64,000 nt of DNA, from the NCBI RefSeq assembly GCF_009914755.1, contig NC_060929.1; one strand, given 5' to 3'. Position numbers and translations under genes: made by a program. The stretch is from the human T2T-CHM13v2.0 reference genome, Homo sapiens. The notes under the pieces were generated by a model. It was given only the letters and a program-made list of their open reading frames with translations. It did no database searches and was not told where the DNA came from. Positions 1 through 17,100 of the stretch are shown in pieces (positions within the stretch are counted from its first letter, which is position 1; each line of letters begins with the position of its first letter).

Positions 1-3000
1 CAACATGAGTTATTAAATAGGGAATCCTTTCCCCATTGCTTCTTTTTCTCAGGTTTGTCAAAGATCAGATAGTTGTAGATATGTGGCATTATTTCTGAGG
101 GCTCTGTTCTGTTGCATTGATCTATATCTCTGTTTTGGTACCAGTACCATGCTGTTTTGGTTACTGTAGCCTTGTACTATAGTTTGAAGTGAGGTAGCGT
201 GATGCCTCCAGCTTTGTTCTTTTGGCTTAGGATTGATTTGGCGATGCGGGCTCTTTTTTGGTTCCATGTGGACTTTAAAGTAGTTTTTTCCAATTCTGTG
301 AAGAAAGTCATTGGTAGCTTGATGGGGATGGCACTGAAACTATCAATTACCTTGGGCAGTATGGCCATTTTCACGATATTGATTCTTCCTATCCATGAGC
401 ATGGAATGTTCTTCCATTTGTTTGTGTCCTCTTTTATTTCATTGAGCAGTTGTTTGTAGTTCTCCTTGAAGAGGTCCTTCATGTCCCTTGTAAGTTGGAT
501 TCCTAGGTATTTTATTCTCTTTGAAGCAATTGTGAATGGGAGTTCACTCCTGATTTGGCTCTCTGTTTGTCTGTTATTGGTGTATAAGAATGCTTGTGAT
601 TTTTGTACATTGATTTTGTATCCTGAGACTTTGCTGAAGTTGCTTATCAGCTTAAGGAGACTTTGGGCTGAGACAATGGGGTTTTCTAGATATACTATCA
701 TGTCATCTGCAAACAGGAACAATTTGACTTCCTCTTTTCCTAATTGAATACCATTTATTTCCTTCTCCTGCCTAATTGCCCTGGCCAGAACTTCCAACAC
801 TATGTTGAATAGGAGTGGTGAGAGAGGGCATCCCTGTCTTGTGCCAGTTTTCAAAGGGAATGCTTCCAGTTTTTGCCCATTCAGTATGATATTGTCTGTG
901 GGTTTGTCATAGATAGCTCTTATTATTTTGAGATACATCCCATCAATACCTAATTTATTGAGAGTTTTTAGCATGAAGGGTTGTTGAATTTTGTCAAAGG
1001 CCTTTTTCTGCATCTATTGAGATAATCATGTGGTTTTTGTCATTGGTTCTGTTTATATGCTGGATTACATTTATTGATTTGCATATATCAAACCAGCTTT
1101 GCATCCCAGGGGTGAAGCCCACTTGATCATGGCGGATAAGCTTTTTGATGTGCTGCTGGATTCGGTTTGCCAGTATTTTATTGAGGATTTTTGCATCAAT
1201 GTTCCTCAAGGATATTGGTCTAAAATTCTCTTTTTTGGTTGTGTCTCTGCCCGGCTTTGGTATCAGGATGATGCTGGCCTCATCAAATGAGTTAGGGAGG
1301 ATTCCTTCTTTTTCTATTGATTGGAATAGTTTCAGAAGGAACGGTACCAGTTCCTCCTTGTACCTCTGGTAGAATTCGGCTGTGAATCCATCTGGTCCTG
1401 GACTCTTTTTCTTGGTAAGCTATTGATTATTGCCACAATTTCAGAGCCTGTTATTGGTCTATTCAGAGATTCAACTTCTTCCTGGTTTAGTCTTGGGAGG
1501 GTGTATGTGTCGAGGAATTTATCCATTTCTTCTAGATTTTCTAGTTTATTTGTGTAGAGGTGTTTGTAGTATTCTCTGATGGTAGTTTGTATTTCTGTGG
1601 GATCGGTGGTGATAACCCCTTTATCATTTTTTATTGCATCTATTTGATTCTTCTCTCTTTTCTTCTTTATTAGTCTTGCTAGTAGTCTATCAATTTTGTT
1701 GATCCTTTCAGAAAACCAGCTCCTGGATTCATTAATTTTTTGAAGGGTTTTTTTGGTCTCTATTTCCTTCAGTTCTGCTCTGATTTTAGTTATTTCTTGT
1801 CTTCTGCTAGCTTTTGAATGTGTTTGCTCTTGCTTTTCTAGTTCTTTTAATTGTGATGTTAGGGTGTCAATTTTGGATCTTTCCTGCTTTCTCTTGTGGG
1901 CATTTAGTGCTATAAATTTCCCTCTACACACTGCTTTGAATGTGTCCCAGAGATTCTGGTATGTTGTGTCTTTGTTATCATTGGTTTCAAAGAACATCTT
2001 TATTTCTGCCTTCATTTCGTTATGTACTCAATAGTCATTCAGGAGCAGGTTGTTCAGTTTCCATGTAGTTGAGTGGTTTTGAGTGAGTTTCTTAATCCTG
2101 AGTTCTAGTTTGATTGCACTGTGGTCTGAGAGATAGTTTGTTATAATTTCTGTTCTTTTACATTTGCTGAGGAGAGCTTTACTTCCAACTATGTGGGCAA
2201 TTTTGGAATAGGTGTGGTGTGGTGCTGAAAAAAATGTATATTCTGTTGATTTGGGGTGGAGAGTTCTGTAGATGTCAATTAGGTCCACTTGGTGCAGAGC
2301 TGAGTTCAATTCCTGGGTATCCTTGTTAACTTTCTGTCTCGTTGATCTGTCTAATGTTGACAGTGGGGTGTTAAAGTCTCCCATTATTACTGTGTGGGAG
2401 TCTAAATCTCTTTGTAGGTCACTCAGGACTTGCTTTATGAATCTGGGTGTTCCTGTATTGGGTGCATATATATTTAGGATAGTTAGCTCTTCTTGTTGAA
2501 TTGATCCCTTTACCATTATGTAATGGCCTTCTTTGTCTCTTTTGATCTTTGTTGGTTTAAAGTCTGTTTTATCAGAGACTAGGATTGCAACCACTGCCTT
2601 TTTTTTGTTTTCCATTTGCTTGGTAGATCTTCCTCCATCCTTTTATTTTGAGCCTATGTGTGTCTCTGCACGTGAGATGGGTTTCCTGAATACAGCACAC
2701 TGATGGGTCTTGACTCTTTATCCAATTTGCCAGTCTGTGTGTTTTAATTGGAGCATTTAGTCCATTTACATTTAAAGTTAATATTGTTATGTGTGAATTT
2801 GATCCTGTCATTATGATGTTAGCCGGTTATTTTGCTCGTTAGTTGATGCAGTTTCTTCCTAGCCTCGATGGTCTTTACAATTTGGCATGATTTTGCAGTG
2901 GCTGGTACCAGTTGTTCCTTTCCATGTTTAGTGCTTCCTTCAGGAGCTCTTTTAGGGCAGGCCTGGTGGTGACAAAATCTCTCAGCATTTCCTTGTCTGT

Positions 3001-14100: not shown

Positions 14101-17100
14101 GATAACAAAGACACAACATACCAGAATCTCTGGGACACATTCAAAGCAGTGTGTAGAGGGAAATTTATAGCACTAAATGCCCACAAGAGAAAGCAGGAAA
14201 GATCCAAAATTGACACCCTAACATCACAATTAAAAGAACTAGAAAAGCAAGAGCAAACACATTCAAAAGCTAGCAGAAGACAAGAAATAACTAAAATCAG
14301 AGCAGAACTGAAGGAAATAGAGACCAAAAAAACCCTTCAAAAAATTAATGAATCCAGGAGCTGGTTTTCTGAAAGGATCAACAAAATTGATAGACTACTA
14401 GCAAGACTAATAAAGAAGAAAAGAGAGAAGAATCAAATAGATGCAATAAAAAATGATAAAGGGGTTATCACCACCGATCCCACAGAAATACAAACTACCA
14501 TCAGAGAATACTACAAACACCTCTACACAAATAAACTAGAAAATCTAGAAGAAATGGATAAATTCCTCGACACATACACCCTCCCAAGACTAAACCAGGA
14601 AGAAGTTGAATCTCTGAATAGACCAATAACAGGCTCTGAAATTGTGGCAATAATCAATAGCTTACCAAGAAAAAGAGTCCAGGACCAGATGGATTCACAG
14701 CCGAATTCTACCAGCGGTACAAGGAGGAACTGGTACCGTTCCTTCTGAAACTATTCCAATCAATAGAAAAAGAAGGAATCCTCCCTAACTCATTTGATGA
14801 GGCCAGCATCATCCTGATACCAAAGCCGGGCAGAGACACAACCAAAAAAGAGAATTTTAGACCAATATCCTTGAGGAACATTGATGCAAAAATCCTCAAT
14901 AAAATACTGGCAAACTGAATCCAGCAGCACATCAAAAAGCTTATCCGCCATGATCAAGTGGGCTTCATCCCTGGGATGCAAAGCTGGTTTGATATATGCA
15001 AATCAATAAATGTAATCCAGCATATAAACAGAACCAATGACAAAAACCACATGATTATCTCAATAGATGCAGAAAAAGGCCTTTGACAAAATTCAACAAC
15101 CCTTCATGCTAAAAACTCTCAATAAATTAGGTATTGATGGGATGTATCTCAAAATAATAAGAGCTATCTATGACAAACCCACAGCCAATATCATACTGAA
15201 TGGGCAAAAACTGGAAGCATTCCCTTTGAAAACTGGCACAAGACAGGGATGCCCTCTCTCACCACTCCTATTCAACATAGTGTTGGAAGTTCTGGCCAGG
15301 GCAATTAGGCAGGAGAAGGAAATAAATGGTATTCAATTAGGAAAAGAGGAAGTCAAATTGTTCCTGTTTGCAGATGACATGATAGTATATCTAGAAAACC
15401 CCATTGTCTCAGCCCAAAGTCTCCTTAAGCTGATAAGCAACTTCAGCAAAGTCACAGGATACAAAATCAATGTACAAAAATCACAAGCATTCTTATACAC
15501 CAATAACAGACAAACAGAGAGCCAAATCAGGAGTGAACTCCCATTCACAATTGCTTCAAAGAGAATAAAATACCTAGGAATCCAACTTACAAGGGACATG
15601 AAGGACCTCTTCAAGGAGAACTACAAACAACTGCTCAATGAAATAAAAGAGGACACAAACAAATGGAAGAACATTCCATGCTCATGGATAGGAAGAATCA
15701 ATATCGTGAAAATGGCCATACTGCCCAAGGTAATTGATAGTTTCAGTGCCATCCCCATCAAGCTACCAATGACTTTCTTCACAGAATTGGAAAAAACTAC
15801 TTTAAAGTCCACATGGAACCAAAAAAGAGCCCGCATCGCCAAATCAATCCTAAGCCAAAAGAACAAAGCTGGAGGCATCACGCTACCTCACTTCAAACTA
15901 TAGTACAAGGCTACAGTAACCAAAACAGCATGGTACTGGTACCAAAACAGAGATATAGGTCAATGCAACAGAACAGAGCCCTCAGAAATAATGCCACATA
16001 TCTACAACTATCTGATCTTTGACAAACCTGAGAAAAAGAAGCAATGGGGAAAGGATTCCCTATTTAATAAATGCTACTGGGAAAACTGGATAGCCATATG
16101 GAGAAAGCTGAAACTGGATGCCTTCCTTACACCTTATACAAAAATTAATGCAAGATGGATAAAAGACTTAAATGTTAGACCTAAAACCATAAAAACCCTA
16201 GAAGAAATCCTAGGCATTACCATTCAGGACATAGGCATGGGCAAGGACTTCATGTCAAAAACACCAAAAGCAATGGCAACAAAAGCCAAAATTGACAAAT
16301 GGGATCTCATTAAACTAAAAAGCTTCTGCACAGCAAAAGAAACTACCATTAGAGTAAACAGACAACCTACAAAATGGGAGAAAATTTTCGCAACCTACTC
16401 ATCTGACAAAGGGCTAATATCCAGAATCTACAATGAACTCAAACAAATTTACAAGAAAAAAACAACCCCATCAAAAAGTGGGCAAAGGACATGAACAGAC
16501 ACTTCTCAAAAGAAGACATTTATGCAGCCAAAAAACACATGAAAAAATGCTCACCATCACTGGCCATCAGAGAAATGCAAATCAAAACCACAATGAGATA
16601 CCTTCTCACACCAGTTAGAATGGCAATCATTAAAAAGTCAGGAAACAACAGGTGCTGGAGAGGATGTGGAGAAATAGGAATATTTTACACTGTTGGTGGG
16701 AATGTAAACTAGTTCAACCATTGTGGAAGTCAGTGTGGCGATTCCTCAGGGATCTAGAACTAGAAATACCATTTGACCCAGCCATCCCATTACTGGGTAT
16801 ATACCCAAAGGATTATAAATCATGCTGCTATAAAGACACATGCACATGGATGTTTATTGTGGCACTATTCACAATAGCAAAGACTTGAAACCAACCCAAA
16901 TATCCAACAAAGATAGACTGGATTAAGAAAATGTGGCACATATACACCATGGAATACTATGCAGCCATAAAAAAATGATGAGTTCATGTCCTTTATAGGG
17001 ACATGGATGAAATTGGAAATCATCATTGTCAGTAAACTATCACAAGGACAAAAAACCAAACACCGCATGTTCTCACTCATAGGTGGGAATTGAACAATGA

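What the first reader, a model, noticed from the sequence alone, without database searches (positions are those of the whole stretch)
10..16070. Two old, independently inserted L1s homogenised into a ~4.8 kb near-perfect inverted repeat (candidate recurrent NAHR inversion)
Seen: the paired ORFs mirror exactly (x pairs with 16080-x, no net indel). By eye I found only 10 differences between 10 and 4800: 121/15959, 626/15454, 895/15185, 1112/14968, 1164/14916, 1365/14715, 2230/13850, 2341/13739, 4072/12008 and 4744/11336. Both copies share the ORF1 GTG start, the ORF1 frameshift and most ORF2 stops and frameshifts; only the CGA>TGA at 14916 is private. They sit in different host L1s with different target sites. 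Established: an element with these lesions cannot retrotranspose, and independent L1PA3/4 copies differ by several percent. Inference: ongoing gene conversion or flip-flop inversion of the ~6.3 kb spacer keeps them identical. I recall human inversion catalogues listing an event in this part of 5q12.3, but cannot verify it, so this may not be new.
Basis: partly seen in the sequence, partly recalled or inferred. Interest (0 to 1): 0.85.

Follow-up and report, generated by a model that had tools for sequence, protein, structure and literature searches.

The report
Known L1-flanked human inversion HsInv0055
Two separately inserted L1 retrotransposons lying head to head have been made almost identical over 4.9 kb, and the pair is the already catalogued, common and recurrent human inversion HsInv0055, so the finding is real but not new.

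Summary
Window 10-4890 and 11190-16070 form a gapless 4881-nt inverted repeat in the register x+y=16080, with 15 mismatches.

The reading also holds. The arms belong to two separate L1PA3-type insertions with different 5' tips, host L1s and target sites. They share 70 private substitutions in 3454 scored sites, against 4 in 1053 outside the arms. Gene conversion explains this; duplication or recent transposition does not.

The locus is not new. It is InvFEST HsInv0055 (Giner-Delgado et al. 2019, PMC6748972): breakpoint intervals of 4881 bp each, inverted repeats of 6.0 kb at 96.6%, labelled L1PA7/L1PA3, NAHR, "Recurrent" with 3 events, minor allele 0.325.

Three points I did not see in that paper:
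- L1 homology continues past the outer edge in the same register, but identity steps from 99.8% to 86%. The left element is a young/old L1 chimera.
- T2T-CHM13 carries orientation O2, inverted relative to GRCh.
- The target-site duplication and host-L1 colinearity are intact in O2, so O2 is the arrangement in which the L1s inserted. The paper lists the ancestral state as undetermined.

The parts
1..9 (-). Last 9 bases of the 3' part of an older L1 ('OH', labelled L1PA7 in the paper). It continues to about 1071 bases upstream of the window.
   Evidence: It is colinear with the right L1 in the same register at only 84-88% identity per 200-base bin. Its best other genome matches are 85-88%.
10..4890 (-). 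Left arm. This is the young L1PA3-type element 'Y2', from L1 position about 4920 back to the 5' UTR. It equals breakpoint interval BP1 of HsInv0055.
   Evidence: Searches give 15 mismatches and no indel against 11190-16070. It is 93-96% identical to 8 family copies. BP1 is 4881 bp in hg18.
4744..4935 (-). The left L1's own 5' tip, not homogenised. It overlaps the inner end of the arm and ends at the L1 5' terminus.
   Evidence: There are 6 mismatches in 147 bases, then a 7-base indel and more mismatches. It is 89-91% identical to the 5' ends of young-family copies, similar to the right tip at 87-92%.
4891..11189 (.). The 6299-nt spacer, which is the segment that inverts. In CHM13 it lies in orientation O2.
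   Evidence: The paper's C-side probes read on the + strand into the BamHI sites at 7337 and 7392. The B-side probe reads on the - strand from the site at 7810. Primer D1 is at 16070-16093 and primer A1 lies 25 kb to the left.
4936..8320 (-). 5' part of the old host L1 'OH' (L1 positions about 10-3092), with its own older type of 5' UTR.
   Evidence: It is 83% identical to the right L1 and 87% identical to the same old-family copies that best match window 1-9 and the sequence upstream of it. Window 7197-8320 aligns over 1139 bases only to a full-length old-family copy.
8774..11146 (-). Host L1 'H2', the part to the left of the right L1 insertion.
   Evidence: It is 91.6% identical to the right L1 and ends at right-L1 coordinate 12986.
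11136..11146 (+). Target-site duplication of the right L1, 5' copy (AAGAATGTTGA).
11147..17351 (+). Right L1 'Y', a full-length L1PA3-type element with an A tail. ORF1 and ORF2 are both broken.
   Evidence: Pfam finds the L1 ORF1 domains, the endonuclease and RVT_1. The reading frames are in stop-to-stop pieces. Other copies match across the arm edge at 95-96%.
11190..16070 (+). Right arm, equal to breakpoint interval BP2 of HsInv0055.
17352..17362 (+). Target-site duplication of the right L1, 3' copy.
17352..19180 (-). Host L1 'H2', the part to the right of the insertion.
   Evidence: It starts at right-L1 coordinate 12996. This overlaps the left part (which ends at 12986) by 11 nt, the length of the target-site duplication.

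Best explanation
Two L1PA3-type elements inserted separately, head to head, into two different older L1s about 6.3 kb apart. The right one is a complete insertion with a target-site duplication. The left one lost its 3' 1.2 kb and now runs, in register, into the 3' part of its older host L1. Later, non-reciprocal homologous exchange (ectopic gene conversion) between the two young elements overwrote one with the other. The converted tract runs from that chimeric junction (window 10) to about 130-190 bases short of the 5' ends, leaving 4.7-4.9 kb at 99.7-99.8% identity. This inverted repeat is the substrate of the published NAHR inversion HsInv0055, which flips the 6.3-kb spacer recurrently in humans. 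CHM13 carries orientation O2, the arrangement in which both L1s originally inserted. The GRCh references carry the flipped form, O1. Shown here: the anatomy, the identity step, the shared private substitutions and the CHM13 orientation. Taken from the paper: polymorphism, recurrence and allele frequencies. Inferred: conversion as the mechanism, its date, and a deletion as the origin of the chimera.
For: The inverted repeat and its 15 mismatches come.

Identity per 200-base bin is 99-100% inside the arms and 84-88% beyond window 10, in the same register.

The right L1 is coherent across the edge: 39 of 39 non-self hits listed match at 95-96% over the full 801 bases. A left-side query across the edge finds only 91-92%.

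The left outer part finds at best 88% anywhere among the scored hits.

Segment identities against 8 young and 8 old copies:
- arm: 93-96% to young copies, 79-90% to old copies
- left outer part: 85-86% young, 87-88% old
- window 4939-7196: 83% young, 87% old
- left tip: 89-91% to young 5' ends

Shared private sites number 70 of 3454 in the arm core and 4 of 1053 outside it (Fisher P=4e-5).

The right L1's private load outside the arm is 22 of 1053 (2.1%), about the same as the 2.0% shared load inside the arm.

The target-site duplication lies at 11136-11146 and 17352-17362, and the host L1 coordinates overlap by 11 nt.

The paper's primers and probes place CHM13 in the AC+BD configuration, which is O2.
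Against: Only one haplotype was read. No second human haplotype and no ape sequence could be examined, so the test that paralogues are closer than orthologues was not done.

The direction of conversion is undetermined.

Only 40 of thousands of candidate L1 copies were scored per genome search, so the 'best match' figures are lower bounds.

The family majority used rests on 5-8 copies, and 1280 of the 4734 arm-core sites were not scored. Three of the core differences (2341, 4072, 4744) were among those not scored.

O2 being the insertion-time arrangement does not fix the state in the human-chimpanzee ancestor. The paper reports panTro5 as O1 and gorGor5 as O2.

I read HsInv0055 only in the paper's supplements and in three passages, so the authors or InvFEST may already describe the identity step.
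Confidence: 0.85

Rival explanations
1. There was only one young L1. The left element is a single old L1 (L1PA7) whose 5' 4.9 kb was overwritten directly by the right L1PA3.
For: There is an in-register identity step at window 9/10. The paper labels the repeat pair L1PA7/L1PA3.
Against: The left 5' tip is a young-type 5' UTR, 89-91% identical to young copies, and is as different from the right tip as from unrelated copies. The old family's own, different 5' UTR and its L1 positions about 10-3092 lie next door at 4936-8320, 87% identical to the same old copies. The old element is therefore interrupted, not overwritten. Conversion would also have had to start across 86% identity.
Confidence: 0.07
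2. The left arm is a DNA-level inverted duplication of part of the right L1 (a small segmental duplication or template switch), not a second insertion.
For: The arms are 99.7% identical with no indel. The left copy has no A tail or target-site duplication.
Against: The innermost 190 bases differ by 4% or more, then by a 7-base indel, yet both copies reach an L1 5' terminus. A duplication would not stop being identical shortly before the natural end of the element and then carry a different L1 terminus. No non-L1 flank is shared.
Confidence: 0.03
3. The chimeric junction at window 9/10 did not arise by a later deletion between the nested young L1 and its host. It arose at insertion: a break in the old L1 primed reverse transcription on a young L1 RNA at the homologous position. 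This would be an endonuclease-independent, 3'-truncated insertion with a target deletion. The gene conversion and the inversion would be as in the best explanation.
For: It gives the same end product: no A tail, no target-site duplication, an in-register 3' junction, a full 5' end, and 1.8 kb of host missing. That such insertions exist is recalled from the literature and comes from no call.
Against: Nothing here discriminates between the two routes. Deletion between two same-orientation L1s is the commoner documented route (recalled).
Confidence: 0.3
4. The near-identity is an assembly artefact in which one arm was copied onto the other.
For: None was found. It is a generic risk for repeats of about 5 kb.
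Against: Fifteen differences are retained. The clone-based hg18 entry reports the same interval length and the same overall identity. The published assays, designed on these sequences, genotyped 551 people.
Confidence: 0.01

Closest known systems
InvFEST HsInv0055 (Giner-Delgado et al. 2019, Nat Commun, PMC6748972; Supplementary Data 1, 2, 3, 6 and passages read)
   Same: It is the same locus. The entry lies on chr5 just upstream of RGS7BP and has two breakpoint intervals of 4881 bp, equal to the arm length. It reports inverted repeats of 5,999/6,002 bp at 96.6%; CHM13 gives 96.69% over 6014 columns. The paper's primers D1, B1, C1 and A1 and its three probe ends all map here.
   Different: The spacer is 6299 nt in CHM13 and 6252 in hg18. 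CHM13 is O2 and GRCh is O1. In what I read, the paper gives one average identity and an undetermined ancestral state. The identity step, the chimeric left element and the target-site-duplication argument are my additions.
HsInv0341 (chr13, L1PA3 pair) and HsInv0266 (chr4, L1PA5 pair), from Aguado et al. 2014 (PMC3961182, passages) and Giner-Delgado 2019 Supplementary Data 1
   Same: They are inverted L1 pairs of 1.9-6.2 kb at 98.4-98.5% identity, flanking segments of 5-18 kb. They arise by NAHR and are classed as recurrent.
   Different: They are different loci. I did not examine whether their arms show conversion steps.
L1-flanked balanced inversions in the Porubsky et al. preprint (10.1101/2021.12.20.472354, passages read)
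   Same: There are 22 L1-flanked inversions. In 21 of 22 the L1 pair is more than 90% identical (median 97.2%), and the median size is 5.6 kb. This locus fits that class.
   Different: Their table of sites is a closed supplement, so I could not see whether this locus is listed. The main text has no mention of chr5.
Arm-to-arm gene conversion in palindromes, for example on the Y chromosome (Hallast et al. 2013; seen only as a reference title)
   Same: Multi-kilobase conversion keeps inverted arms nearly identical, with rare inversions.
   Different: Here the arms are two unrelated transposon insertions rather than a duplicated palindrome. The tract is bounded by the limits of high L1-L1 similarity.

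Membership tests
HsInv0055 (catalogued NAHR inversion) | Same place, and same breakpoint-interval and repeat dimensions | tested here: met
   The arms are 4881 nt and the hg18 intervals are 63797584-63802465 and 63808718-63813599. Repeat identity is 96.69% over 6014 columns here against 96.6% over 6.0 kb in the entry.
HsInv0055 (catalogued NAHR inversion) | The published assay oligonucleotides map uniquely at the expected places | tested here: met
   B1 maps at 8149-8170 (-), C1 at 7224-7242 (+) and D1 at 16070-16093 (+). A1 has a single genome hit 25 kb to the left (-). The probe ends map at the BamHI sites 7337, 7392 and 7810. D2 was not found within -10000 to 22000.
HsInv0055 (catalogued NAHR inversion) | Both orientations exist in people, and the inversion recurs | not testable with these tools
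   This comes from the paper only: minor allele 0.325 in 480 unrelated people, and 3 recurrence events on 15 chromosomes. Here I could show only that CHM13 is AC+BD while the paper lists hg18, hg19 and hg38 as O1.
Ectopic gene conversion between dispersed repeats | The two copies have independent origins | tested here: met
   They have different 5' tips, different host L1s and different insertion points. The right copy has its own target-site duplication.
Ectopic gene conversion between dispersed repeats | An internal tract far more alike than the homologous sequence on both sides of it | tested here: met
   Mismatch is 0.19% in 10-4743. It rises to 4.1% and then to indels toward the 5' ends, and to 12-16% beyond window 10.
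Ectopic gene conversion between dispersed repeats | Private substitutions of one copy are present in the other | tested here: met
   70 of 3454 sites in the arm core against 4 of 1053 outside it.
Ectopic gene conversion between dispersed repeats | Paralogues within a species are closer than orthologues between species | not testable with these tools
   No ape or second human sequence is held.
Standard L1 insertion by target-primed reverse transcription | A tail and target-site duplication | tested here: met
   Met for the right L1: an A run, then AAGAATGTTGA at both ends.
Standard L1 insertion by target-primed reverse transcription | A tail and target-site duplication, for the left L1 | tested here: not met
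   The left young L1 has a 5' terminus but no 3' end. At L1 position about 4920 it continues into an older L1. I read this as secondary loss.
L1-L1 recombination-associated deletion | A chimeric L1 joined in register, with the sequence between two same-orientation L1s missing | tested here: met
   The junction at window 9/10 is in register. Host positions about 3092-4920 and the young L1's 3' end are absent.
L1-L1 recombination-associated deletion | A pre-deletion allele in an outgroup | not testable with these tools
   No outgroup sequence is held.

The most novel reading that the evidence does not exclude
The inversion hotspot is secondary and young. Two L1s that differed by about 4% were converted to 99.8% identity only in the last 5% or so of their residence, roughly 0.6-2 Myr ago depending on the mutation rate. 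This conversion would have created the long perfect homology that now drives recurrent flipping. The non-reference O2 form, carried by CHM13 and by most non-Africans, is the arrangement in which the L1s inserted, so the GRCh reference shows the rearranged state. That would settle an ancestral status the catalogue leaves undetermined. It would also make the locus a datable example of gene conversion creating an NAHR hotspot.
Probability: 0.45. Interest if true: 0.35.

Novelty: already known. Interest (0 to 1): 0.2.

Why it matters
The locus is a clean, small example of how dispersed transposons become a rearrangement hotspot. It is already in the inversion catalogues and has been genotyped in 551 people, with no sign of selection in the FST tests I saw. 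The added value here is anatomical. First, the recombining tract is bounded on one side by a young/old L1 chimeric junction and on the other by the unconverted 5' tips. Second, CHM13 and GRCh differ in orientation, which is a practical point for anyone lifting coordinates or mapping across this 16 kb. Third, the intact target-site duplication identifies O2 as the insertion-time arrangement. None of this changes how such inversions are understood.

Tried and rejected
- I first suspected HsInv0278 from memory. The paper places it at chr5:180 Mb, so it is a different locus.
- A search for RGS7BP plus inversion gave 6 irrelevant papers.
- A search for variant-ID-like words for this region (chr5-6446.., chr5-6529.. 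and similar) found 0 papers.
- Puig et al. 2020 has no chr5 entry in its main text.
- I considered that the arm was a cDNA copy of the right L1's own transcript, used to patch a break in the old L1. I rejected this because the 5' tips differ.
- I considered a single inversion crossover between a young and an old L1. It would give reciprocal chimeras, not two identical arms, so I rejected it on logic.
- The motif at window 1-9 does not recur in the right L1, so the edge is not a simple indel.
- A tandem-repeat scan of the spacer found only one 147-bp array. It did not explain the 47-bp difference in spacer length between CHM13 and hg18.
- The clustering of arm differences in the outer half (8 of 9, P=0.018) is a post hoc split. 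I do not build on it.
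Full report
**1. The observation**

The repeat finder reports one dominant inverted pair, arms 10-4890 and 11190-16070, each 4881 nt, with 6299 nt between them. 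Among the registers 16075-16085, only x+y=16080 pairs the arms. It gives 262 mismatches over x=1-5200; every other register gives about 3700.

Within the arms there are 15 mismatches and no indel. Five more lie at 4806, 4829, 4860, 4867 and 4869.

Mismatch density is 0.19% in 10-4743 and 4.1% in 4744-4890.

- The stop at 14916-14918 is private to the right copy.
- Both arms have an in-frame GTG where 4 of 4 full-length relatives have ATG.
- ORF1 ends inside its last Pfam domain.
- ORF2 is split into many stop-to-stop pieces. These carry the endonuclease and RVT_1 domains.

**2. What lies beyond the arms**

The window's genome is held, so I fetched the 10 kb upstream of the window.

The left L1 does not end at window 10. 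It stays colinear with the right L1, in the same register, for another 1.08 kb. Identity drops abruptly from 99-100% to 84-88% per 200-base bin.

The right L1 is coherent across that edge. An 801-base query spanning it finds other genomic L1s at 95-96% over its full length. The equivalent left query finds only 91-92%. The left outer part alone finds nothing better than 88% (only 40 of 18,661 candidates were scored).

At the inner end both copies reach an L1 5' terminus. However, the last 190 bases or so differ, first by 4%, then by a 7-base indel and dense mismatches.

**3. Anatomy**

The right L1 (11147-17351, + strand) is full length with an A tail. It is flanked by AAGAATGTTGA at 11136-11146 and 17352-17362. 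It sits in a minus-strand host L1, at 8774-11146 and 17352-19180, about 91% identical to it. The two halves of the host overlap by 11 nt in L1 coordinates, which is the length of the target-site duplication.

The left young L1 (minus strand, 5' end at 4935) abuts a minus-strand old L1 at 4936-8320, covering L1 positions about 10-3092.

I compared these segments with 8 young-family and 8 old-family copies fetched from the genome:

| Segment | Identity to young copies | Identity to old copies |
|---|---|---|
| Arm | 93-96% | 79-90% |
| Left outer part | 85-86% | 87-88% |
| Window 4939-7196 | 83% | 87% (same old copies) |
| Window 7197-8320 | short hits only | 81.8% over 1139 bases, one full-length old copy |
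| Left 5' tip | 89-91% (5' ends) | 83% over 100 bases, one copy |
| Right 5' tip | 87-92% (5' ends) | 79.5% over 127 bases, one copy |

I read this as one old L1 with a young L1 nested in it in the same orientation. The young element's 3' 1.2 kb and host positions about 3092-4920 were then lost, leaving an in-register young/old junction at window 9/10.

The loss could be a deletion by recombination between the two same-orientation L1s. It could instead be a 3'-truncated, homology-primed insertion. I cannot tell these apart here.

**4. Why gene conversion**

The two young elements are independent insertions. They have different tips, hosts and target sites. Other family members differ from the arms by 4-7%, yet the arms differ from each other by 0.19-0.31%.

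I scored sites where at least 5 of the 8 family copies give a majority of 70% or more. In the arm core, both arms share a non-family base at 70 of 3454 sites (2.0%). In the homologous outer part this happens at only 4 of 1053 sites (Fisher P=4e-5).

The 2.0% shared load matches the right L1's own private load outside the arm, 22 of 1053. One element's accumulated mutations were therefore copied into the other.

A broken element cannot have produced the other by transposition. If it had, the tips would also match. A DNA duplication would not carry a different L1 terminus.

Inversion crossovers only swap differences between arms, so non-reciprocal conversion is required. The donor cannot be identified. 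Of the 7 core differences that could be scored, 5 are private to the right arm and 2 to the left.

The ratio of arm divergence to private load puts the last homogenisation at about 5% of the elements' age. That is roughly 0.6-1.9 Myr for rates of 1.7 to 0.5 x 10^-9 per site per year. This rests on one haplotype and is an inference.

**5. What is known**

The supplementary tables of Giner-Delgado et al. 2019 (PMC6748972) list HsInv0055 as follows:
- chr5, hg18 BP1 63797584-63802465 and BP2 63808718-63813599, each 4881 bp
- inverted segment 6252 bp
- inverted repeats 5,999/6,002 bp at 96.6% identity, labelled L1PA7/L1PA3
- generated by NAHR, origin "Recurrent", ancestral status ND
- hg18, hg19 and hg38 all O1
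- detected by five earlier studies

Supplementary Data 3 gives three recurrence events on 15 chromosomes. Supplementary Data 6 gives panTro5 as O1 and gorGor5 as O2, with the rest undetermined. Apes could not be genotyped experimentally.

The minor-allele frequency is 0.325 overall, 0.583 in Africans, 0.221 in Europeans and 0.139 in East Asians. In the 27 CEU genotypes shown in part 1 of Supplementary Data 2, there are 16 O2/O2, 10 O1/O2 and 1 O1/O1. O1 is therefore the globally minor allele. The FST tests show no evidence of selection.

A full-text search for HsInv0055 finds only this paper and its preprint. In the passages I read, neither discusses the structure of the repeats.

The Porubsky et al. 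preprint describes 22 L1-flanked inversions as a class. Its site table is a closed supplement.

**6. Orientation in CHM13**

The paper's oligonucleotides map as follows:
- Primer D1 is at 16070-16093 (+), exactly at the outer edge of the right arm.
- Primer A1 has a single genome hit 25 kb to the left, on the minus strand.
- The two C-side probe ends read on the + strand into the BamHI sites at 7337 and 7392.
- The B-side probe end reads on the minus strand from the site at 7810.

C therefore faces A and B faces D. This is AC+BD, which is O2 in the paper's scheme.

In this arrangement the right L1's target-site duplication and both host L1s are colinear. O2 is therefore the arrangement in which the elements inserted, allowing for an even number of flips since. 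In O1 the duplicated target sites and host halves would be separated and opposed.

This does not establish the state in the human-chimpanzee ancestor.

**7. Verdict**

The locus is already catalogued and well genotyped. The additions here are the identity step, the chimeric left element, the CHM13 orientation and the insertion-time arrangement. They are modest and rest on one haplotype.

Noticed in passing
L009 about 6250-8930 (about 1072-3746 bases upstream of the window): The old host L1 ends inside its 3' UTR with no A tail. It is butted head to head against a much older plus-strand L1, which is 71-77% identical to the right L1.
   Followed up: no
window 8320-8853: The host L1 of the right element stops at L1 position about 4240, so its 3' third is missing. 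There is a 147-bp tandem duplication of 1.9 copies at 8578-8853, a few hundred bases from the 5' end of the other old L1. The origin of this junction is unexplained.
   Followed up: partly
window 17300-17351: The right L1's tail is an A-rich run, then about 20 non-A bases, then A11 before the target-site duplication. This may be a tiny 3' transduction or tail heterogeneity.
   Followed up: no
window 4891-11189: The spacer is 6299 nt in CHM13 and 6252 in the hg18 table. The 47-bp difference was not located.
   Followed up: partly
window 10-4743: Eight of the nine core differences between arms lie in the outer half (10-2341) and one in the inner half. A post hoc binomial test gives P=0.018. This may hint at more recent or more frequent conversion near the spacer.
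   Followed up: partly
L028, column aligned to window 14916: An unrelated L1 copy carries the same TGA as the right arm at this CpG site, so it is a parallel change.
   Followed up: no
window 1-16070 versus GRCh: CHM13 and the GRCh references differ in the orientation of this 6.3-kb segment. Liftover and read mapping across it will show an apparent inversion.
   Followed up: yes
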